This document shows, piece after piece, positions 188-50,683 of a DNA stretch of 64,000 nucleotides. Numbering within the stretch: position 1 is the first letter of the stretch; each line of letters opens with the position of its first letter. Source of the stretch: an uncultured Candidatus Saccharibacteria bacterium (lineage in GTDB: Bacteria > Patescibacteriota > Minisyncoccia > UBA11713 > 2-01-FULL-45-33); the NCBI GenBank assembly GCA_964464405.1, contig CAYXFX010000001.1:3466-67465 (forward strand). Direction: 5' to 3'. The notes beneath the pieces were generated by a model that made no database searches, was not told the origin of the DNA, and worked only from the letters and a program-made list of their open reading frames with translations. Made by a program: the position numbers and the translations under genes.

Positions 188-1006
188 ATGCCCGAATTGC
201 CTGAAGTTGAAATAACAAAAAGAAAACTTGAGCCGCTTATTGTGGGGAGGAGAGTTTTTGGTTTGGGAAAAATTTTGGGAATAGAACGGCGCGGAAAAGC
301 ATTGATGTTTTATCTCTCAAATAATAAGGCGCTCGCGATTCATCAGAGAATGAGCGGAAGAATTCTGGTTGTTGGGAGAGGAGAGAAAAATAAGTATTTT
401 AGGCGGAGATTTAAACTTTCAAACGGAAAAGATTTGGTTTTGCATGACGTGCGAAAGTTTGGAGTGGTTTGGTACGGAAAAAAAGATAAAATTTTGAGGG
501 AAAATTATTTTAAAACACTTGGGCCAGATGCTTTGGCCGTTTCGCTTAAAGAGTTTAGGAATTTATTGCTTCCTCCTTCCTCTCCTTCACAAGGAAAGGA
601 TAAGAGAATCACAACTCCTCCCCTTGTAAAGGGGAGGATTGGGAGGGGTATAAAATCTTTTCTACTTAATCAAAAAAATATTGCCGGCATCGGAAATATT
701 ATGGCGGATGAAATTTTGTGGCATGCGCATATTCATCCCGAAAGAAAAATCGCAACTTTAACGAATTCCGAAATAAAAAATTTTTGGAAGTCTATACGCT
801 CGGTTCTTAATAGAAGTATAAAATTGGGCGGATCTTCCATGCGCGATTGGATGCATCCGGACAACTCTCGCGGAGGATATTTTGAAAAAAGAAGTATTTA
901 TGCCCGAGAAGGCGAATCTTGCAAAAAATGCGCCCAAAAAATTTTGCGAAAAAAAATAAACGGACGTTCCGCTTATTTTTGTGAAAATTGCCAAAAAAAA
1001 TCCTGA
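188..1006 (+). CDS. fpg: formamidopyrimidine-DNA glycosylase (Fpg/Nei family)
   Basis: N-terminal MPELPEVE (catalytic Pro2/Glu3 signature), H2TH region (IAGIGNIMADEILWHAHIHP), C-terminal zinc finger CKKCAQ..CENC; carries a ~25-aa low-complexity insertion (PPSSPSQGKDKRITTPPLVKGRIGRG). Confidence 0.85.
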   Translation: MPELPEVEITKRKLEPLIVGRRVFGLGKILGIERRGKALMFYLSNNKALAIHQRMSGRILVVGRGEKNKYFRRRFKLSNGKDLVLHDVRKFGVVWYGKKDKILRENYFKTLGPDALAVSLKEFRNLLLPPSSPSQGKDKRITTPPLVKGRIGRGIKSFLLNQKNIAGIGNIMADEILWHAHIHPERKIATLTNSEIKNFWKSIRSVLNRSIKLGGSSMRDWMHPDNSRGGYFEKRSIYAREGESCKKCAQKILRKKINGRSAYFCENCQKKS

Positions 1007-1010
1007 GAAA

Positions 1011-1271
1011 TTATCTCAGGTAGCAGTCATAGTGATGGGTTCTTTTATTGTATTTACACTGTTTTCCTCTGTACGGTGGGTGATGTCCGCGATACTGGTA
1101 ATGGTATTCATATCGATGCGGATGCTTTGGAATCGGGCGGTAATAATAATATGTTGGAGGATTGGAATAAATTACAGCGGGTTCGTGCCGGTACACTCTG
1201 CCTCCAACAACACATGAAGATAGCAGGGCGGAAAAAAGAAAAACAAAAACAATTATTGAATATTTAAACAT
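1011..1271 (-). CDS. small putative lipoprotein, Tyr/His/Pro-rich
   Basis: Hydrophobic signal peptide followed by lipobox-like LLSSC, then a Y/H/P/R-rich low-complexity tail; competes with two + strand ORFs that lack any such signal; tandem with the neighbouring lipoprotein gene on the same strand. Confidence 0.45.
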   Translation of the reverse strand: MFKYSIIVFVFLFSALLSSCVVGGRVYRHEPAVIYSNPPTYYYYRPIPKHPHRYEYHYQYRGHHPPYRGKQCKYNKRTHHYDCYLR

Positions 1272-3646: not shown

Positions 3647-5221
3647 ATGACTATTCAGGATCGCCTTGCAAAGGTGCGTTTTTTTGACGTAAAGCCCGAT
3701 CTTTCATCCCTTGATGCAAATCAGAAACAAGCGCTGACCCACTGCGTCAATGCTTCGCGCATCATAACCGATATCTATTTGGATCAGGTGTACGCCGATA
3801 ATAAGAGAATTTATCACTATCTTCAGAATCGAAGCGATGCAGAAGGAAAAGATCTCTTGCGTTATTTCCTTATTCATGGATCTCCGTGGGATGCCTATGA
3901 TCACGATCGTCCATTCATTTCTGGAGTCGGAGAAAAGCCGAAGTTCGGTTCTTTCTACCCTTCTGATCTCGTAAAGGATGAATGGGATGCGTGGCTGAAC
4001 GCACACCCGAAAGATCGTGAACGATTTGAAAGTAACTACACCATAATTCGGCGTCAAAACGCAGGGTTGTTCGCAAGATCATATTCAGATGAATACGCCG
4101 ATCGATTGAGCGAAACGGCTAATCTCCTGCGACAAGCATCCGTTCTACTTCCCGATGGTTCGCTACGATTGTTCTTGCAACTTCGCGCCGACGCTTTTTT
4201 GTCGAATAACTACTTTGAAAGCGACATGGCATGGGTGGATACTGACGGAAGTCCTTTTGAGGTCACCATTGGCCCCTACGAAACTTACTTCGATGAACTA
4301 CTTGGATTGAAAGCCTCCTTTGAGGCGTTCGTTGCACTTCCAGACAAAGATGCTACTATTGCTCTTGCTCGATTCACTCCTGTCGTTCCTGACTTTGACA
4401 CAATACTTAGTCAGGAGTTTGACTTCAGTCCAAAGGGGGCTGCTATTCCTCTGGAAGTGGTCTCTGATGTGGCGCGTGGAGGCGGAGCAGGATTCGGATA
4501 CATGTTTGTCGCATACAACCTTCCTAACGATCGGAGAGTACATGACCTCAAGGGGTCAAAGAAAGTGTTCTCTCGGACGATGATGGAGGCGAAGTTTTCT
4601 ACGCTTGCTCTTCCAATCGCTGAGCGGCTGCTTACTCACGACGTTCTGGACCAATGCACATTCGATAACAGATTACTGTTTGTTCTTGGGCACGAACTTG
4701 CTCATGGACTTGGCCCCAGTAAGATCCGTATCGACGGCAGAGAAATGCCATTCGAGGTTGCTCTGAAAGACCTTCACTCGTCTCTCGAAGAAGCAAAGGC
4801 GGACATGCTCGGTGCCCGGCTACTCAATTACTTCCGAGGCAGAAACCTCCTTGATGACGAAACCCTTCAAGGAATTGTTGCGACGGAACTCGTTGCTTAT
4901 TTCCAAGGGTGGAGACACGGATTTACTGAAGCTCACGCCCGAGGCAGTCTCATCGAATACAACTGGTTGAGAGCTGCAAATGCGTTGCGTTATGAAACGA
5001 CAACAAAACGATACGAAATCGATCCTGAACGCTGCGTTGATGCTATGTCGCGCCTTAGCACCGAGTTCTTGAACCTTCAAATCGTTGGTGATTACGAACG
5101 CGCGAAGGCCTTCATGGAACACTGGGGATCTGTCTCTCCGGAACTACCTCTTATCATCGAAAGTTTTTCCGACATCCCGACAGCAGTAAGTCCGGTTTGG
5201 GATTTGTCGGAACTGAAATAG
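3647..5221 (+). CDS. M49-like (DPP III-like) zinc metallopeptidase, short bacterial form
   Basis: HELAHGLG zinc motif plus downstream EEAKAD, matching the two-motif HExx(x)H ... EExxA(E/D) arrangement of peptidase family M49; AGGAGG RBS 8 nt upstream; visibly higher GC than flanking genes. Confidence 0.55.
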   Translation: MTIQDRLAKVRFFDVKPDLSSLDANQKQALTHCVNASRIITDIYLDQVYADNKRIYHYLQNRSDAEGKDLLRYFLIHGSPWDAYDHDRPFISGVGEKPKFGSFYPSDLVKDEWDAWLNAHPKDRERFESNYTIIRRQNAGLFARSYSDEYADRLSETANLLRQASVLLPDGSLRLFLQLRADAFLSNNYFESDMAWVDTDGSPFEVTIGPYETYFDELLGLKASFEAFVALPDKDATIALARFTPVVPDFDTILSQEFDFSPKGAAIPLEVVSDVARGGGAGFGYMFVAYNLPNDRRVHDLKGSKKVFSRTMMEAKFSTLALPIAERLLTHDVLDQCTFDNRLLFVLGHELAHGLGPSKIRIDGREMPFEVALKDLHSSLEEAKADMLGARLLNYFRGRNLLDDETLQGIVATELVAYFQGWRHGFTEAHARGSLIEYNWLRAANALRYETTTKRYEIDPERCVDAMSRLSTEFLNLQIVGDYERAKAFMEHWGSVSPELPLIIESFSDIPTAVSPVWDLSELK

Positions 5222-7184: not shown

Positions 7185-7448
7185 ATGTACTATGTTTATG
7201 TATTAAAAAGTAAGGCGGATGGACATTTGTACACGGGTTGCACAAAGAATTTAAAAGCTCGACTTGAAATGCATAATTGTGGTAATGTAGAATCTACCAA
7301 AAACAGAATGCCTTTCGTGCTTGTGTATTATGAAGCGTTTTTAAACAAAAATGACGCTTTTGCAAGAGAACAATGGCTTAAAACGGGATGGGGTCGTAAT
7401 CATTTAAGCAAAATATTAAAAAATTATTTAAAAAATTTAGGCGGGTAA
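7185..7448 (+). CDS. GIY-YIG nuclease domain protein (YhbQ/UPF0213-like)
   Basis: YVYVLKS...HLYTGCTKNLKARLEMHN GIY-YIG core; 87 aa, abuts rpsL. Confidence 0.75.
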   Translation: MYYVYVLKSKADGHLYTGCTKNLKARLEMHNCGNVESTKNRMPFVLVYYEAFLNKNDAFAREQWLKTGWGRNHLSKILKNYLKNLGG

Positions 7449-8340: not shown

Positions 8341-9021
8341 ATGGAAAAACATTCCTACGAGCAGTACGTAGGCAAAGAAAAAAATGAACGAAGAGAACTC
8401 ATGTCTGCGTCAGGAGCGCTTGATCGCAGACGTTTTTTGCTTTCCCGATCTCTGGAATGGAAAGAAAGAATAAAAAAATTACAGGAAGTTTTTTATGAAA
8501 TAAAACAAGATCACCCGGAAGTTGTCTCTCTTAGTTTATTTGGCTCACTTACAAAGGGCTATGCAAATGAGGAATCAGACGTTGATGGGTGGCTAAATAT
8601 TGATAACGACAAGACGCCTAAAAATTCGAGTCCTGAGCAATATCAAAACATGATAATATCGCATATAAAACATGCATTAAATTTGGATTACAAAAAAATT
8701 GAACATGTTGTCCCAGTGTTTTGGCAAAAAGAGGAAATAATACACATGTGTAAGCATAAGGATGTCGGTGATCTTGTCAAATTATTTACGCTTTCAATCG
8801 GAAGGGATATAAATAATTATCGCAAGATTGTGTTTGATGAGTTGGAAAAAGAGGGATTGGATGGCGAAATTGTATGGATATCACTAATGGACAAATTGGC
8901 TTTATTTGAGAGCGGAGGTTTAGACGGGGCGGCACAGAGGAAACGGAGAAAACTTTACCCCAGAAATTTAGCAGAGGGAAGGAAGTATTTTTTGCAAGGG
9001 TTGCCGGATGAGATTTCGTAA
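8341..9021 (+). CDS. Pol-beta-superfamily nucleotidyltransferase (KNTase/ANT/Lnu-like two-domain architecture)
   Basis: hGS-x10-DVD motif (LFGSLTKGYANEESDVDGWLNID) followed by ~100-aa helical C-terminal region; inserted between rpsG and fusA. Confidence 0.6.
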   Translation: MEKHSYEQYVGKEKNERRELMSASGALDRRRFLLSRSLEWKERIKKLQEVFYEIKQDHPEVVSLSLFGSLTKGYANEESDVDGWLNIDNDKTPKNSSPEQYQNMIISHIKHALNLDYKKIEHVVPVFWQKEEIIHMCKHKDVGDLVKLFTLSIGRDINNYRKIVFDELEKEGLDGEIVWISLMDKLALFESGGLDGAAQRKRRKLYPRNLAEGRKYFLQGLPDEIS

Positions 9022-9102: not shown

Positions 9103-11202
9103 ATGGCACGCGAATATCCGATCGAAAAAGTAAGAGATATAGGAATCATCGCTCATATTGATGCAGGGAAAACTACGGTTTCTGAGCGGGTTCTTTTTTA
9201 TACCGGAATTTCTCATAAAATTGGTGAGGTGCACGAGGGCGAGGCTGTAATGGATTGGATGGAGCAGGAGCGTGAGCGCGGAATTACTATTACATCTGCA
9301 GCAACAACCTGTTTTTGGAAGCCCACATATCTTCCGCAGGAGAAAAAAAATGAATATCGGATAAATATCATTGATACTCCCGGCCACGTGGATTTTACAG
9401 TCGAGGTGGAGCGCTCGCTTCGCGTTTTAGACGGAGGAGTTGTTGTTTTTGACGGTGTTGCCGGAGTTGAACCCCAATCTGAAACCGTCTGGAGGCAAGC
9501 AGATAAATATAATGTGCCCAGAATTTGTTTTATAAATAAGCTCGATCGCATGGGGGCTTCTTTTGATAACAGTTTTAAATCTATTCTTGACCGCTTAACT
9601 CCGAATGCCGTTGCAATTACTATTCCTGTGGGGCTTGAATCGGATTTCGCGGGAATAATCGATCTTATGCGGATGAAATTTATTAAATTTGAAGGAGTAA
9701 ACGGTGAAAAAATAGTAGAAGAAGAAATTCCTGAAGATAAAAAGGATTACGTAAAGGAATGGCGGCATAAATTGATTGAACGTATTGCGGGAGAAGACGA
9801 CGTGCTAACTGAAAAATATCTGGAAGGAAAGGACATCAGCATTGACGAGCTAAGAAGCGCATTAAGGAAGGCAACAATTTCATATAAATTGGTTCCTGTT
9901 TTTTGCGGATCTGCTTTAAAAAATAAAGGAGTGCAGATAATGTTAGACGGCGTAATAGATTATTTACCTAGTCCAATTGAGCTTCCTCCTACAAAAGGAG
10001 TTGGTTTTAAGGGAGAGGAAGTTGCACGCGAAGCAAAGGACGATGTTCCTTTTACAGCACTTGCATTTAAATTACAGACCGATCCCTATGTCGGACAGCT
10101 TACATATTTTCGGGTTTATTCAGGCGTGCTTTCTGCTGGTTCTTACGTTTTAAATTCAACAACCGACAGCAAGGAACGCGTGGGCAGAATTTTGCGCATG
10201 CATGCAAACCACAGAGAAGAAGTAAAAGAAATGCAGGCTGGAGATATCGGCGCGATCGTTGGCCTAAAAAATACTAAAACAGGAGACACTCTTTGCGATC
10301 CGGATCACCCGATAATTTTAGAGAAAATTACATTCCCCGAACCAGTTGTTTCCTTGAGGATTGAACCTAAAACAAAAGCGGACCAGGAGAAAATGGGGTT
10401 GGCTTTGCACCGTCTTTCCGAAGAGGATCCAACCTTCAGAATTAAAGGGGACGAAGAAACTATGGAGACAATTATTTCTGGCATGGGCGAACTGCATTTA
10501 GAAATTATTGTTGATCGAATGAAAAGAGAATTTAAAGTTGAGGCAAACGTAGGGCGCCCACAGGTTGCTTATAAAGAAACAGTTAAAAAAGAAGCTGAAG
10601 CCGAAGGAAAATATATTAAGCAATCGGGAGGAAGGGGGCAATACGGCCATGTATGGCTTCGTGTAAAGCCATTGGAAAGAGGCAAGGGTTTTGAATTTGA
10701 AAATGCAATCAGAGGCGGAGTAATTCCGCAAGAATTTATTCCGGCAGTTGAAAAAGGAGTGTTGGAAACTTTAGACAAGGGGGTTGTTGCTGGGTATCCG
10801 ATGGTTGATATGGAGGTGACGCTTTATGACGGATCGTATCACGAAGTGGACTCATCTGAGGCTGCATTTAAAATCGCGGGATCGATCGCTTTAAAAGAAG
10901 CTGTAAAACGCGCAACGCCCGTAATTTTAGAGCCCGTTATGAAAGTTGAAGTTGTAACACCAGATCAATTTTTGGGGGATATCACGGGCGATTTATCTTC
11001 AAAACGCGGAAGAATTGAAAGAATGTCTGAGCGGACGAATGTGAAAGTTATAGATGCGAAAGTTCCGCTTTCTGAAATGTTCGGGTATGTAACAAAACTC
11101 CGCTCGATGACAGAAGGAAGAGCGAGTTACACGATGGAGTTTGACCACTACGAAGAAGTTCCGAATAATATTGCGGAGTTGATTAAGGAAGGAAAAAAGT
11201 AA
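9103..11202 (+). CDS. fusA: elongation factor G
   Basis: [10 protein letters not shown]1 motif, DTPGHVDF, full-length EF-G domains. Confidence 0.95.
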
Positions 11203-11322
11203 TTTTAAATTCTCAATTATCAACTTACAATGAATTTTCAATATTAAATTAATTTTCAATTTAAAATTTTAAATTATATATTTATTGAAAATTGGAAATT
11301 AAAAATTGTAAATTTTTCAACC

Positions 11323-11478
11323 ATGGACGATGACTTAATTTTAGGCGAGGAATTTTTGTCTGAAACGGTAGACCAAATTTTTTTGGACGATGCGCCGCAA
11401 GGCGAAACACTTCTCTCCGAAAAACTTCTCTCGCAAAATTTAGAGGAAGAACTTTCCCTTGACGACTTGCCCTTATAG
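11323..11478 (+). CDS. possible small acidic protein (51 aa), speculative
   Basis: ATG..TAG ORF MDDDLILGEEFLSETVDQIFLDDAPQGETLLSEKLLSQNLEEELSLDDLPL in otherwise noncoding spacer; no clear RBS; below the ORF-track size cutoff. Confidence 0.25.
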   Translation: MDDDLILGEEFLSETVDQIFLDDAPQGETLLSEKLLSQNLEEELSLDDLPL

Positions 11479-11500
11479 ATTTTTTGCAGTTTTTTGCTTG

Positions 11501-11535
11501 TTGCATTTTCGATACGATCGTGATAGTTTTGCAAC
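11501..11535. promoter_or_regulatory. 35-bp nested palindrome TTGCAttttcgatACGATCGTgatagttTTGCAAca (copy 1)
   Basis: Outer TTGCA/TGCAA inverted repeat around central ACGATCGT palindrome; abuts ATG of the PaaX-like gene; near-identical copy at 12131. Confidence 0.5.
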
Positions 11536-12102
11536 ATGGGTCAACGGTTAAGTAAAAGAGAAAAAGATAAAAAAGTAAAAAATGGCAAATTTTCTGCCCC
11601 CAACTTTGTATTGTTGACGCTCAATAGAATGGTTAATTGCCCGTTCGAAATACTGTTGGAATCCGGAAAAATAAAAAACCAACTAAGGCCTTCGTCAACA
11701 AAGTCTGCTGTATACAGATTGCAAAAAAGAAATTTAATTTTTGCTGAACGGCGCGGAAAGAAAATTTTGTTTGCTCTTACAGAAGAAGGAGCAAAAGAAG
11801 CCGAAAAAATCAAATTTAAATTTACGAAGCCAAATTTTCAAAAGTGGGATGGAAAGTGGAGAGTTATTATTTTTGATATTCCGGAAAAATTACGTGGCAA
11901 ACGCGACTTGTTAAGAAAAGAGCTTGTTGGTTTTGGATTTATGCAACTTCAAAAAAGCGTTTGGGCTTATCCTAACTCGTTACCCAATGAGTTTATAGAT
12001 TTTTGGAGAGAAGCCGGGATATTAAAACATTGCGTAATTTTTGAAGCGGATAGAATAGAAAACGGAAAAAATTTGGAAAAATTCTTTTTCAACAAAGTTT
12101 AA
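11536..12102 (+). CDS. PaaX-family-like transcriptional regulator
   Basis: C-terminal WDGKWRVIIFDIPEKLRGKRDLLRKELVGFGFMQLQKSVW matches the PaaX_C signature (W.G.W.lv.fdIPE..R..R..LR..L...GFG.L..SVW); N-terminal basic/HTH-like region. Confidence 0.6.
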   Translation: MGQRLSKREKDKKVKNGKFSAPNFVLLTLNRMVNCPFEILLESGKIKNQLRPSSTKSAVYRLQKRNLIFAERRGKKILFALTEEGAKEAEKIKFKFTKPNFQKWDGKWRVIIFDIPEKLRGKRDLLRKELVGFGFMQLQKSVWAYPNSLPNEFIDFWREAGILKHCVIFEADRIENGKNLEKFFFNKV

Positions 12103-12130
12103 AAGTTGAATACAAAATAAATAGTTTGTG

Positions 12131-12166
12131 TTGCATTTTTATTACGATCGTATCAGTTTTGCAACA
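12131..12166. promoter_or_regulatory. nested palindrome TTGCAtttttatTACGATCGTAtcagttTTGCAAca (copy 2)
   Basis: Same architecture as 11501-11535 with central 10-bp palindrome TACGATCGTA; ~70 bp upstream of putative tuf promoter. Confidence 0.5.
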
Positions 12167-12233
12167 AAGATGTTTTTGACTATTTTTGTTTTTTTATGCC
12201 CAGTTTTTGCCCATTATGAACGGTTTCATGGTA

Positions 12234-12262
12234 TTGACACGTTTTTTAGCATCGTATAACAT
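12234..12262 (+). promoter_or_regulatory. putative sigma-70 promoter for tuf (TTGACA-N15-TATAAC or N17-TAACAT)
   Basis: Perfect -35 hexamer and acceptable -10 about 60 nt upstream of tuf ATG. Confidence 0.4.
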
Positions 12263-12322
12263 ACTTCGTATACGCGATTTTGTCGCGTGTTGGCTTTTAA
12301 TAACCTAAATTTTATATAAATT

Positions 12323-13516
12323 ATGGCAGAGAAATTTGAAAGGACGAAGCCGCACTTAAATGTGGGAACTATAGGACACGTCGACCATGGAAAGACCACC
12401 TTAACAGCGGCAATTTTAAATGTATTAAATTTGGCCGGAAATAAGGCCAGAATCGAGAAAGTCGAAGATATCGACAATGCTCCAGAAGAGAGACAGCGCG
12501 GAATTACTATTGCTCTTCACCACTCTGAATACGAGACAGAAAAGCGCCACTACGCGCATATCGATGCCCCGGGGCACGCTGATTACATCAAAAACATGAT
12601 CACGGGAGCCGCCCAAATGGATGGCGCTGTTTTGGTGGTTTCGGCGGCGGATGGGCCGATGCCTCAAACAAGAGAGCACATTTTGCTTGCGCGCCAAGTC
12701 GGAGTGCCTGCAATTGTGGTTTTCTTAAACAAAGTTGATATGGTGGACGACAAAGAGCTCGTTGATCTAGTGGAAACAGAAGTAAGAGAACTTTTGACAA
12801 AATATGAATACCCGGGAGACAAAACCCCGATTATCCGCGGTTCAGCGTTAAAAGCACTTGAAGCCAAATCAAAAGATGATGAATGGGCAAAGCCGATTTT
12901 GGAATTAGCCAAACAACTTGACGAATATATTCCTGAACCAGTTCGCGACATAGAAAAGCCATTTCTTATGCCTGTTGAAGATGTTTTTTCAATTGAAGGA
13001 AGAGGGACGGTTGTTACCGGCCGTATTGAAAGAGGAAAAATTAAATTAAACGAAGAAATCGAAATTGTAGGTTTGAAAGATACCCAGAAAACTGTTGTAA
13101 CTGGAATCGAAATGTTCAATAAACAATTGGATGAAGGAATGTCGGGAGACAACGCGGGTATATTGTTAAGAGGCGTTAAAAAAGAAGATGTCGAGCGTGG
13201 ACAGGTTTTAGCAAAACCCGGTTCAATTACCCCTCATACCGAATTTGAAGCCGAAATTTATGTGCTTACCAAAGAAGAGGGAGGACGCCATACGCCGTTC
13301 TTTACCGGATATAAGCCCCAATTTTATATCAGAACGACCGATGTTACCGGCGAAGTTACTTTACCGCAAGGAACTGAAATGGTAATGCCGGGAGACACAG
13401 TAAAATTTAGCGTAAAACTTATAGCGCCGGTTGCTCTTGAAGAAAAATTGAGATTTGCGGTTCGCGAAGGAGGAAAGACGGTAGGAGCGGGAATTGTAAC
13501 CAAAATTAATAAATAA
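12323..13516 (+). CDS. tuf: elongation factor Tu
   Basis: [22 protein letters not shown]; 397 aa. Confidence 0.95.
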
Positions 13517-50176: not shown

Positions 50177-50683
50177 TCATTTCTTGGGCGATACTGTCAA
50201 GGAAAGCCCTTTGGGTCCCTTTTTAATGTCTTCTCTTGCAAACCCGTGTGAAATCAATTTTAAAAATCGTTCAAGTCTTTCTTCGAGAAATTTTCTATCT
50301 AAATATTTCTCCCGCCCCTTTAAAAATAAATCGATTTTAATTTTATTTCCTTCATTTAAAAACTCATCCGATTGGCGAGCTTTTAGCTCTAAATCGTGCT
50401 GCGAAGTGCCGATCCCTATTCTTATGCTTTTGACCTCGACTTCTTTATGTTTTTTTGCGGCGGCTTTTCGTTTTTTTTCGAGTTCATAAAAATATTTTCC
50501 CCGATCCATGATTTTTGCAACCGGCGGATTAGCCCCTGGCGAAATTTCGATTAAGTCCAATCCGGTTTCTTCTGCACGTTTCAGTGCTTCTGCCAAGGAA
50601 ATTATACCAATATTGTTGCCGTCTTGGTCTATGACGCGAAGTGTTGAGGAAGAAATTTGGTTGTTTAATCTTAAGTTATTGAT
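50177..50683 (-). CDS. infC: translation initiation factor IF-3, probable non-AUG (AUC) start
   Basis: C-terminal domain KEVEVKSIRIGIGTSQHDLELK...; upstream in-frame extension INNLRLNNQISSSTLRVIDQDGNNIGIISL aligns with IF-3 N-domain ([25 protein letters not shown]) but contains no ATG/GTG; in-frame TAA three codons above the ATC; ORF-track start at 50596 is a TTG inside the N-domain. Confidence 0.7.
   Translation of the reverse strand: MNNLRLNNQISSSTLRVIDQDGNNIGIISLAEALKRAEETGLDLIEISPGANPPVAKIMDRGKYFYELEKKRKAAAKKHKEVEVKSIRIGIGTSQHDLELKARQSDEFLNEGNKIKIDLFLKGREKYLDRKFLEERLERFLKLISHGFAREDIKKGPKGLSLTVSPKK

What the first reader, a model, noticed from the sequence alone, without database searches (positions are those of the whole stretch)
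11501..12172. PaaX-like regulator inserted between fusA and tuf, with a 35-bp nested palindrome present twice (before itself and before tuf)
Two near-identical elements occur about 630 bp apart. Copy 1 is TTGCATTTTCGATACGATCGTGATAGTTTTGCAACA (11501-11535). Copy 2 is TTGCATTTTTATTACGATCGTATCAGTTTTGCAACA (12131-12166). Each has outer arms TTGCA / TGCAA in inverted orientation around a central perfect palindrome (ACGATCGT, extended to TACGATCGTA in copy 2). This is the geometry of an operator for a dimeric HTH regulator. Copy 1 abuts the ATG of a gene whose C-terminus carries the PaaX_C signature (WDGKWRVIIFDIPE..R..R..LR..L...GFG.LQKSVW). Copy 2 lies just upstream of a near-consensus promoter (TTGACA at 12234) for tuf and the S10 operon. 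This suggests an autoregulated regulator that also controls tuf and ribosomal protein transcription. Both copies are followed within 0-3 nt by an ATG. In copy 2 that opens a 27-codon ORF (12170-12253), so a leader-peptide mechanism is also conceivable.
Basis: seen in the sequence. Interest (0 to 1): 0.6.

Follow-up and report, generated by a model that had tools for sequence, protein, structure and literature searches.

The report
Repressor gene bracketed by its own operators
A small PaaX/Cas2-like DNA-binding protein gene in a Giovannonibacteria (CPR) genome carries a copy of its own 38-bp palindromic binding site at each end, an arrangement shared by most of a very large CPR protein family, so the downstream copy belongs to the gene itself and is not a switch for tuf.

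Summary
A 38-bp element, TGTTGCA-N8-ACGATCGT-N8-TGCAACA, lies at 11499-11536 and 12129-12166. The two copies share 32 of 38 bases, and the 64-kb window holds no others. They bracket a 188-aa gene encoding a winged-helix domain plus a PaaX_M (Cas2-like) domain. The protein lacks the PaaX effector domain.

The same layout is family-wide. In 69 of 81 homologous loci across the Candidate Phyla Radiation, a cognate ~38-bp palindrome sits just before the ATG and again 0-80 nt after the stop. Only 1 of about 302 control genes shows this. The outer arms differ between paralogs and track the recognition helix. The C..G centre is conserved. The geometry matches the E. coli PaaX operator, TGATTC-N27-GAATCA.

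The upstream copy carries promoter signals, with a -10 about 6 nt before the ATG. The downstream copy is the better palindrome and lacks them.

The downstream neighbour is convergent in 45 of 78 loci. Close homologs are not at fusA-tuf. Homology with relatives resumes only at the tuf promoter at 12234.

Verdict: this is a self-contained autoregulated repressor cassette sitting in a variable fusA-tuf island. Control of tuf and a leader peptide are not supported. It is a new variant of a known kind. I found no description of it in the searchable literature.

The parts
11499..11536 (+). Upstream copy (U) of the 38-bp bipartite palindrome: TGTTGCA, 8 nt, ACGATCGT, 8 nt, TGCAACA. The centre of symmetry lies between 11517 and 11518. 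The last base is the A of the start codon.
   Evidence: Located. An equivalent element lies just 5' of the ATG in 69 of 81 family loci. The ATG overlaps the end of the right arm in 22 of 69 loci.
11501..11529 (+). Inferred promoter embedded in U: TTGCAT (11501-11506), 17 nt, TG at 11521-11522, TAGTTT (11524-11529), then 6 nt to the ATG. This would give a leaderless or near-leaderless mRNA.
   Evidence: Read from the sequence. It falls below the scan threshold in the window. It is the positional equivalent of TTGACA-17-TAAAAT with TG (11 of 12) in the paralog L108 and TCGACA-17-TAAAGT with TG in L010. U copies have better -10 hexamers than D copies across the family (33 better, 10 worse, p=8e-4). 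Function is inferred, not shown.
11536..12102 (+). Gene for a 188-aa protein: a Lys-rich tail, a winged-helix domain (about residues 20-97) and a PaaX_M / Cas2-like domain (about residues 102-180). There is no PaaX_C effector domain.
12129..12166 (+). Downstream copy (D) of the same palindrome, starting 27 nt after the stop codon. It is more symmetric than U (TACGATCGTA core) and lacks the TG-n-TA -10 signature.
   Evidence: Located. D copies are better palindromes than U copies family-wide (37 better, 20 worse, p=0.0075) and have poorer -10 hexamers. The D centre lies a median of about 34 nt after the stop.
12234..12262 (+). Context, not part of the cassette: the tuf promoter, TTGACA-17-TAACAT. 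It marks the point where sequence shared with relatives resumes.
   Evidence: Promoter scan. blastn homology to L113/L114 runs from 12234 to 12500 and homology to fusA ends at 11202.

Best explanation
The region is a self-contained autoregulatory cassette. The 188-aa protein is a minimal PaaX-type repressor. It has a winged-helix DNA-binding domain and a Cas2-like domain that, as in PaaX, most likely makes the dimer. It has no ligand-binding C-terminal domain.

A dimer is inferred to bind the 38-bp bipartite palindrome. The two recognition helices would read the 7-bp outer arms, which lie 31 bp apart centre to centre, about three helical turns. Some conserved part of the protein would read the conserved central C..G core.

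The upstream copy contains the gene's own promoter and touches the ATG. Binding there would block RNA polymerase, and the ribosome on any read-through transcript, giving negative autoregulation.

The downstream copy is a cleaner binding site without promoter signals and sits just after the stop codon. I infer that it acts as an auxiliary operator. It could cooperate with the upstream site through a ~630-bp loop, or block transcription entering or leaving the cassette, or both.

The cassette is one alternative cargo of a variable island between fusA and tuf. The downstream copy is not a dedicated tuf operator. Some family members also have sites elsewhere, so trans targets probably exist.

What is shown: the anatomy, the family-wide conservation, the arm/helix covariation and the promoter signals. 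What is inferred: binding, repression, looping or roadblock.
For: 1. A flanking pair occurs in 69 of 81 family loci. Among 304 neighbouring control genes only 3 show one, and 2 of those are themselves family genes.
2. The symmetry profile is bipartite. The centre (d1-4) is 0.8-0.99 complementary with C at -3 and G at +3 almost invariant. The spacer (d5-9) is about 0.55. The arms (d10-18) are 0.7-0.94. Symmetry kept at the very centre fits a dimer on double-stranded DNA, not a hairpin loop.
3. The arms differ between paralogs while staying self-complementary. The window has TGTTGCA. The co-occurring paralog P0039/L108 has CGACAT with the same centre.
4. All five proteins with TGTTGCA arms share [KR]-S-x-x-x-R-L in the recognition helix, although they are only about 30% identical overall.
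5. Arm similarity tracks helix similarity after controlling for the Cas2-like domain (partial r=0.35, p=0.001).
6. The E. coli PaaX operator has the same geometry, and PaaX represses its own promoter by steric hindrance (PMC9493321).
7. The fold and sequence are closest to PaaX 8A39, with a clear winged helix.
8. Promoters are embedded in U in orthologous cassettes, with the -10 hexamer 6-9 nt before the ATG. U has better -10 hexamers than D, and D is the better palindrome. The ATG overlaps the right arm in 22 of 69 loci.
9. U and D are conserved islands within diverged intergenic DNA between orthologs.
10. The downstream neighbour is convergent in 45 of 78 loci. The P0028/P0039 ortholog is always convergent with recG.
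11. Extra cognate sites exist in some loci and as orphans in metagenomes.
Against: No binding, transcript or expression data exist; everything is comparative.

In the window itself the embedded promoter is weak. Its -35 hexamer matches 3 of 6, and the promoter scan does not call it. Stronger promoter-like sites lie upstream of ORF51, so the gene could be co-transcribed with ORF51.

The role of the downstream copy is not established. U-to-D distances show no helical phasing (Rayleigh p=0.13). In L010 an intrinsic terminator follows D, so D is not needed as a terminator there.

What contacts the conserved centre is unknown.

The arm/helix correlation is partly phylogenetic; among distant pairs r is only 0.13.

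Orphan sites often lie at gene 3' ends rather than at promoters, which a simple repressor regulon does not predict.
Confidence: 0.7

Rival explanations
1. The downstream copy is an operator through which the protein controls transcription of tuf and the S10 ribosomal-protein operon, in addition to autoregulating through the upstream copy.
For: Copy 2 lies between the regulator gene and tuf, 67 nt before a near-consensus tuf promoter. No intrinsic terminator is called between the regulator's stop codon and tuf. A bound protein could therefore affect read-through from fusA and the regulator into tuf. Several family genes and orphan sites lie near translation genes (lepA, alaS, serS, rplA-rplJ, rpsL region).
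Against: A copy after the stop codon is a general part of the cassette (69 of 81 loci), independent of the downstream gene, which is convergent in 45 of 78 loci. Close homologs are not at fusA-tuf. Copy 2 does not overlap the tuf -35, -10 or UP region. The tuf promoter and leader are conserved in relatives that lack the cassette, and homology starts exactly at the -35 hexamer. The window holds no further site in the S10 operon. Nearness to translation genes has no baseline in these small genomes.
Confidence: 0.1
2. A mobile or recombining cassette. The two palindromes are the ends of an element, and the wHTH-Cas2-like protein cuts or recombines them. This would resemble a transposase that binds terminal repeats with its promoter in the left end.
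For: The layout is compact: site with promoter, one ORF, then site. The fusA-tuf interval is a variable island with different cargo in relatives. Between L011 and L012 (82% identical) and between L006 and L009, DNA homology is limited to palindrome-gene-palindrome, with unrelated flanks. The Asp aligned with the Cas2 catalytic Asp is invariant in the family (D114).
Against: There are no target-site duplications at any tested boundary. No identical multicopy elements were seen: the window has one copy, and paralogs are 30-60% identical with different arms. The P0028/P0039 ortholog keeps one position next to recG in many assemblies. L007 and L008 are syntenic. No relatives were found in viral contigs or phage records. 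The protein has no known transposase or recombinase domain. E. coli PaaX has the same domain and is a plain repressor.
Confidence: 0.08
3. The elements act as nucleic-acid hairpins independent of the protein. They would be terminator-like or REP-like stem-loops that stabilise or end transcripts, and their linkage to the gene would be secondary.
For: In many loci the palindromes are near-perfect and would fold into long hairpins. Orphan copies often lie just after stop codons or between convergent genes. In L102 a similar element lies in repeats flanking an IS200-like Y1 transposase ORF.
Against: In the window the RNA hairpin is weak (-8.8 and -9.4 kcal/mol; z = -0.5 and -1.9), with 7-nt internal loops on each side of the stem. 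The very centre is kept palindromic, and a loop would not need that. G-U-compatible mismatches on the sense strand are not enriched (p=0.28). No T-run follows the elements. The upstream copy would be only half transcribed if its embedded promoter is used. Copy number is tiny: 2 in 64 kb, and extra copies in only 5 of 69 loci. Arm sequence tracks the adjacent protein. There is no Rfam match.
Confidence: 0.07
4. A leader-peptide or attenuation mechanism that uses the short ORF starting 3 nt after copy 2.
For: An ATG at 12170 opens a 29-codon ORF.
Against: The ORF lies upstream of and across the tuf -35 and -10 hexamers, so it is not in the tuf leader made from that promoter. This stretch has no homology in relatives. 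D copies in other loci are not followed by an ATG.
Confidence: 0.01

Closest known systems
E. coli PaaX repressor and its operator (TGATTC-N27-GAATCA); PDB 8A39
   Same: Both have an N-terminal winged helix and a central Cas2-like (PaaX_M) domain. PaaX is the best structural and sequence match. Both operators are short inverted arms about three helical turns apart: 6+27+6 = 39 bp in PaaX and 7+24+7 = 38 bp here. PaaX also represses its own promoter by occluding RNA polymerase (PMC9493321).
   Different: This protein has 188 aa, against 316 for the 8A39 chain, and lacks the C-terminal phenylacetyl-CoA-binding domain (PaaX_C absent). It scores far below the PaaX equivalog cutoff (57.7 against 264.55 bits). 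No paa genes lie within 10 kb on either side. The operator has an extra conserved central palindrome. A second operator copy after the stop codon is a family-wide feature not described for PaaX.
Cas2 (CRISPR adaptation protein, TIGR01573 / PF09827)
   Same: Residues 109-144 align with the Cas2 N-terminus, including the position of the catalytic Asp (F-D-I-P, then R..R, then Q-x-S-V-W). Hits have E of about 1e-4. The ~38-bp partly palindromic repeat is of the same size class as a CRISPR repeat.
   Different: Scores are below the Cas2 cutoffs (20.1 against 24.5 bits). The protein is fused to a winged helix. There are only two repeats, 630 bp apart, with the gene between them, so there is no array. 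No cas1 gene lies within 10 kb on either side.
Immunity regions of lambdoid phages (repressor gene flanked by OL and OR, with looping between them)
   Same: A repressor gene is bracketed by its own cognate operators. There are many specificities in which repressor and operators change together. The unit appears as an exchangeable module in different contexts.
   Different: No phage context was found. Each side has a single long palindrome, not tripartite operators. No divergent early promoters are evident. The protein fold is different. The resemblance is functional analogy only.
Insertion sequences whose transposase promoter lies in the left terminal repeat
   Same: The layout is a binding site containing the promoter, one ORF, then a second binding site, all tightly packed.
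   Different: There are no target-site duplications, no identical copies and no transposase domain. Some members keep a stable orthologous position.
REP elements with RAYT (REP-associated tyrosine transposase) genes
   Same: A gene is flanked by its cognate 20-40-nt palindromes, there are several classes per genome, and solo palindromes lie at gene 3' ends.
   Different: The protein is not an HUH/Y1 enzyme. Copy number is very low. The centre of the palindrome is conserved and symmetric.

Membership tests
PaaX (phenylacetate catabolon repressor, TIGR02277) | Central PaaX_M (Cas2-like) domain | tested here: met
   PF20803 scores 79.9 bits against a cutoff of 24, E=1.5e-22, over residues 102-179.
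PaaX (phenylacetate catabolon repressor, TIGR02277) | N-terminal PaaX-type winged helix | tested here: inconclusive
PaaX (phenylacetate catabolon repressor, TIGR02277) | C-terminal effector (phenylacetyl-CoA) domain PaaX_C | tested here: not met
   There is no PF08223 hit. The protein ends at residue 188, against 316 residues for the 8A39 chain.
PaaX (phenylacetate catabolon repressor, TIGR02277) | Score above the equivalog cutoff | tested here: not met
   57.7 bits against a cutoff of 264.55.
PaaX (phenylacetate catabolon repressor, TIGR02277) | Linkage to paa catabolic genes | tested here: not met
   The genes within 10 kb on either side are ribosomal and translation genes, an NTase and a GIY-YIG ORF. 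None is a paa gene.
PaaX (phenylacetate catabolon repressor, TIGR02277) | Operator made of short inverted arms about 27 bp apart | tested here: met
   TGTTGCA-N24-TGCAACA here, compared with TGATTC-N27-GAATCA (PMC9493321). This compares geometry only; binding was not tested.
Cas2 | Score above the family cutoff | tested here: not met
   TIGR01573 scores 20.1 bits against 24.5. PADLOC Cas2 gives E=1.2e-4 over residues 109-144 only.
Cas2 | CRISPR array and cas1 nearby | tested here: not met
   There are only two repeat copies, 630 bp apart. No Cas1 family appears among the called genes within 10 kb on either side.
Insertion sequence / transposon | Target-site duplication outside the terminal repeats | tested here: not met
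   No excess of 3-6-nt matches at any boundary in 69 pairs, compared with shuffled pairings.
Insertion sequence / transposon | Several near-identical copies in a genome; variable position among close relatives | tested here: inconclusive
   The window holds a single copy. The P0028/P0039 orthologs are fixed next to recG. However, relatives of the window's subgroup lie in different contexts. Whole genomes could not be scanned.
REP / RAYT system | HUH Y1 transposase flanked by REPs, with tens to hundreds of REPs per genome | tested here: not met
   This protein has no Y1_Tnp domain. There are 2 elements in 64 kb. Extra copies occur in 5 of 69 loci.
Intrinsic terminator / structured RNA | Stable hairpin followed by a U-run, or a match to a known RNA family | tested here: not met
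   Hairpin z-scores are -0.5 and -1.9. The terminator scan does not call these sites. There is no Rfam hit at E<=1. Sense-strand G-U mismatches are not enriched.

The most novel reading that the evidence does not exclude
The wHTH-Cas2-like proteins are not only repressors but site-specific DNA-cutting or recombining enzymes. In this reading the invariant Asp at the Cas2 catalytic position sits over the conserved C..G centre of the palindrome. The palindrome-gene-palindrome units would then be a new class of very small (~670 bp) mobile or exchangeable cassettes that seed the variable islands of CPR genomes, including islands inside the str/S10 operons.
Probability: 0.07. Interest if true: 0.9.

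Novelty: new variant of a known kind. Interest (0 to 1): 0.6.

Why it matters
CPR bacteria are uncultivated, and almost nothing is known about how they regulate genes. This finding points to a very large CPR family of minimal PaaX/Cas2-like winged-helix proteins, about 4,500 clusters at 50% identity with E<=1e-10. Several paralogs can occur in one roughly 1-Mb genome.

Each gene carries its own cognate 38-bp site at both ends. That gives hundreds of natural protein/operator pairs without any experiment. These pairs could serve three purposes:
- They provide a readable recognition code linking helix residues to arm bases.
- They provide search patterns for predicting regulons in metagenome-assembled genomes.
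- They provide a set of orthogonal repressor/operator parts.

The finding also shows that a ligand-less PaaX core can exist on its own. It raises a testable question about what a second operator placed after the stop codon does: looping, a roadblock or an insulator.

For this window specifically, it corrects an attractive but unsupported idea that tuf and the ribosomal proteins are under this regulator's control.

Tried and rejected
- **Empty site.** I fetched the closest EF-Tu relatives (92-94% identical) to define insertion boundaries. No clean empty site exists, because the fusA-tuf interval carries different cargo in each genome. Homology ends at the fusA stop and resumes at the tuf -35 hexamer.
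- **Target-site duplications.** None were found.
- **Helical phasing of U-to-D distances.** Not significant.
- **RNA structure.** The fold is weak, there is no G-U bias and no Rfam match.
- **Phage or viral carriage.** None was found.
- **Regulon in the window.** There are no further sites in 64 kb.
- **Metagenome scan with the arm-and-centre pattern.** Of 22 loci, 4 are one GC-rich sequence lying inside a long ORF, which I take to be a chance match, and 4 flank family genes. The remaining 14 carry sites with no family gene in the stretch held (HMM search); their neighbours have no common function.
- **Antisense promoter in D.** The scan calls one in L108 but not in its ortholog L010 or in the window. 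I treat it as a by-product of symmetry.
- **L102.** A similar element lies in long direct repeats around an IS200-like ORF. I judge this a larger duplication, not evidence that the elements are REPs.
- **Literature.** Searches for PaaX with Cas2, Patescibacteria or CPR regulators found nothing relevant.
Full report
**Source and observation.** The window comes from a Candidatus Giovannonibacteria (Parcubacteria, CPR) genome, GCA_016176325.1 contig JACOXL010000005, with 39.7% G+C. The gene order is rpsL-rpsG-[226-aa nucleotidyltransferase]-fusA-[ORF51]-[188-aa gene]-tuf-rpsJ....

The reported repeat is real. The repeat finder gives two 38-nt copies at 11499-11536 and 12129-12166, 84% identical and 630 bp apart. 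The consensus pattern hits only these two places in 64 kb, with none in 100 shuffles. Similarity between the two contexts stops at the element edges.

Each copy reads TGTTGCA, 8 nt, ACGATCGT, 8 nt, TGCAACA. That is two 7-bp inverted arms and an 8-bp central palindrome, separated by two T-rich spacers that are not symmetric. The last base of copy 1 is the A of the ATG at 11536.

**The protein.** Pfam places residues 102-179 in PaaX_M (PF20803), the central Cas2-like domain of PaaX, with E=1.5e-22. It is not PaaX_C, which is absent.
- NCBIfam's PaaX model scores 57.7 bits against a cutoff of 264.55. Cas2 scores 20.1 bits against 24.5. PADLOC Cas2 models hit residues 109-144 at about 1e-4.
- An AlphaFold2 model (pLDDT 75) matches E. 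coli PaaX 8A39 best by Foldseek (E=1.8e-7). A family profile also finds 8A39 best by sequence (3.8e-6).

The protein is therefore a minimal PaaX-like protein: a winged helix plus a Cas2-like domain, without the effector domain. The family is very large. A profile search finds 4,529 clusters at 50% identity with E<=1e-10, nearly all 180-200 aa. One peptide pattern found 253 relatives in GTDB species genomes, and the 80 loci kept are almost all labelled as CPR lineages (a few labels read otherwise).

**The key comparative result.** I examined 81 family genes: the window plus 80 from loci L006-L085. In 69 of them, a ~38-bp palindrome lies just before the start codon and a similar copy lies just after the stop. 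Among 304 neighbouring control genes run through the same procedure, 3 passed. Two of those are themselves second family genes, which leaves a background of about 1 in 302.

The closest homologs (55-65% identical, other Giovannonibacteria) are not between fusA and tuf. They sit next to lepA, alaS, gatC, dnaJ, serS or recG. All of them still carry the pair.

The arms differ from gene to gene while staying self-complementary. Examples are TGTTGCA, ATAACA, ATTACAC, CGACAC, TATACAC, TACGTTA and TACATTA. The centre stays of the type C-[G/T]-[A/G]-[T/C]-[C/A]-G.

The symmetry profile over 69 pairs is bipartite:
- Positions 1-4 from the centre are 0.8-0.99 complementary, with C at -3 and G at +3 almost invariant.
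- Positions 5-9 are about 0.55 complementary.
- Positions 10-18 are 0.7-0.94 complementary.

**DNA site or hairpin.** Four results favour a double-stranded binding site over a hairpin.
- Symmetry is kept at the very centre, where a hairpin would have its loop.
- In the window the RNA fold is weak, at -8.8 and -9.4 kcal/mol with z-scores of -0.5 and -1.9 and 7-nt internal loops on each side of the stem.
- Mismatches that would still pair as G-U on the sense strand are not enriched (p=0.28).
- There is no Rfam match.

The published E. coli PaaX operator is TGATTC-N27-GAATCA, and PaaX represses its own promoter by steric hindrance (PMC9493321). That is the same arm-spacer-arm geometry as here, 39 bp against 38 bp.

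Specificity appears to lie in the arms.
- The paralog P0039, found in the same sequencing runs, has CGACAT arms with the same centre.
- Five proteins that share TGTTGCA arms (the window, L096, L099, L101 and L105; about 30% identical overall by tblastn) all have [KR]-S-x-x-x-R-L in the recognition helix. Proteins with other arms do not.
- Arm similarity correlates with helix similarity after controlling for the Cas2-like domain (partial r=0.35, p=0.001). This is not free of phylogenetic effects, and among distant pairs r is 0.13.

**The two copies are not equivalent.** In the orthologous cassettes L108 and L010, the promoter scan finds the promoter inside the upstream copy. The sites are TTGACA-17-TAAAAT with an upstream TG (11 of 12) and TCGACA-17-TAAAGT with TG. 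The -35 hexamer lies in the left arm, and the -10 hexamer ends 7-9 nt before the ATG.

The window has the positional equivalent: TTGCAT-17-(TG)n-TAGTTT, then 6 nt to the ATG. It is weaker and below the scan's threshold. If it is used, the mRNA is leaderless or nearly so. That is an inference.

Across the family, upstream copies have better -10 hexamers than downstream copies (33 better, 10 worse, p=8e-4). Downstream copies are the better palindromes (37 better, 20 worse, p=0.0075). The first in-frame ATG overlaps the end of the right arm in 22 of 69 loci and lies within 35 nt of the centre in 37. Between orthologs, both copies stand out as conserved islands in diverged intergenic DNA.

**Is copy 2 a tuf operator?** The evidence says no.
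- The downstream neighbour of family genes is on the opposite strand in 45 of 78 loci. The recG-linked ortholog is always convergent. The downstream copy therefore travels with the gene.
- In the window it ends 67 nt before the tuf -35 hexamer at 12234.
- In relatives with 93%-identical EF-Tu (L113/L114), fusA and tuf are separated by 2.7 kb of different cargo: a 213-aa ORF, bAvd and several small ORFs.
- DNA homology to the window ends at the fusA stop (11202), reappears in the 3' part of ORF51, and resumes exactly at the tuf -35 hexamer.

The cassette (11499-12166) is thus one alternative cargo of a variable island. The tuf promoter and leader are conserved without it. The 29-codon ORF after copy 2 lies across the tuf promoter and is not conserved, so a leader-peptide mechanism is rejected. 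A side effect on read-through from fusA into tuf cannot be excluded.

**Other sites.** The window has none. In 569 kb of family loci, extra cognate copies occur in 5 of 69 loci. L065 has seven around the gene. L016 has a third copy beside a palindrome of another specificity, about 50 nt upstream of a membrane-protein ORF.

A metagenome scan with the arm-and-centre pattern gave 22 loci:
- 4 flank family genes.
- 4 are one GC-rich sequence lying inside a long ORF, which I take to be a chance match.
- The remaining 14 have no family gene in the stretch held. Most of these sites are intergenic, several just after stop codons or between convergent genes. Examples are the 3' end of ybeY in two samples, the rplA-rplJ interval and near cysS.

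Trans sites therefore probably exist, but their positions are not typical promoter positions.

**Mobility.** Points in favour:
- The layout is compact and resembles an insertion sequence.
- The cassette sits in a variable island.
- Between L011 and L012 (82% identical) and between L006 and L009, homology is limited to palindrome-gene-palindrome.
- An Asp aligned with the Cas2 catalytic residue is invariant.

Points against:
- There are no target-site duplications.
- No identical copies were seen.
- Some members keep stable orthologous positions.
- Nothing was found in viral or phage collections.

I keep this as the low-probability novel reading.

**Conclusion.** The best explanation is a self-contained, autoregulated cassette of a minimal PaaX-type repressor bracketed by two copies of its operator. 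The upstream copy is merged with the gene's promoter and start codon. The downstream copy is a pure site whose role (auxiliary operator, looping or roadblock) is inferred and untested.

The link to tuf and ribosomal-protein control is not supported. I found no description of this family-wide arrangement in the searchable literature. I rate it a new variant of a known kind, of moderate to good interest.

Noticed in passing
window 8341-9021: A 226-aa Pol-beta-type nucleotidyltransferase is inserted between rpsG and fusA. It gives weak hits to MTPAP-like/NTP_transf_2, to the MntA antitoxin model and to PADLOC PDC-S09. This is a second foreign-looking insertion inside the str operon.
   Followed up: partly
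window 7185-7448: An 87-aa GIY-YIG nuclease-domain ORF ends one base before the rpsL start codon.
   Followed up: no
window 11323-11478; L113 3116-3223: ORF51 is a very acidic 51-aa protein. Its last 22 residues (LLSEKLLSQNLEEELSLDDLPL) are conserved at protein level with a 35-aa ORF in the fusA-tuf island of relatives (ILSDKLLAENLDEEVGLDDLPV). It is probably a real small protein of unknown function.
   Followed up: partly
window 12270-12299; L113 about 3950-3990; L115 about 1-50: A hairpin followed by TGGCTTTTA lies in the tuf 5' leader. The tool scores it as terminator-like. The leader sequence is conserved in relatives, and there is no Rfam match. It may be a tuf leader element.
   Followed up: no
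L113/L114 1302-4000 and 6129-7100; L115 2209-4900: In related Giovannonibacteria, the fusA-tuf interval and the stretch after rplC carry variable cargo. This includes a bAvd (DGR accessory) gene, an Asp-protease-like ORF, SocA_Panacea and many small ORFs. The ribosomal-protein operons of these genomes are broken up by islands.
   Followed up: partly
L102 1-1870: An IS200-like Y1 transposase ORF (269-1012, minus strand; HUH motif NHFHL; Pfam E=3e-5) is flanked by ~125-bp direct repeats. Each repeat holds a 42-bp perfect palindrome and a TGTTGCA..ACGATCGT..TGCAACA element.
   Followed up: partly
L065 2968-4365: Seven copies of one cognate palindrome surround a single family gene, four upstream and three downstream, spaced about 80-145 bp apart.
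   Followed up: no
L016 7600-7695: Two palindromes with different arms (AGGTGATAAT... and CTGTGTTAAT...) lie 58 bp apart, about 50 nt upstream of a membrane-protein ORF and 3.3 kb from the family gene that shares the second arm type. This could be a promoter controlled by two paralogs.
   Followed up: no
L009, L007/L008, L012, L006, L011; L089/L094, L097, L088/L092: Family genes and orphan sites repeatedly lie next to translation-related genes: lepA, alaS, serS, gatC, dnaJ, the 3' end of ybeY, rplA-rplJ and cysS. One ortholog group lies about 1.5 kb upstream of rpsL. No baseline was computed, so this may only reflect CPR gene content.
   Followed up: no
window 11203-11322: An AT-rich block of short direct and inverted repeats lies between the fusA stop and ORF51. 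It includes a near-palindrome at 11231-11270 and several promoter-like hexamer pairs.
   Followed up: no
window 50525-50564: An isolated palindrome-like site, cggattagcccctggcgaaa|tttcgattaagtccaatccg, has 6-bp arms and a symmetric centre. It does not have the CGATCG-type centre.
   Followed up: no
L108 1810-1838 (minus strand): The downstream copy of the paralog's cassette reads as a promoter on the antisense strand (TCGACA-17-TAAAAT, 10 of 12), pointing back into the gene. The scan calls no such site in the ortholog L010 or in the window.
   Followed up: partly
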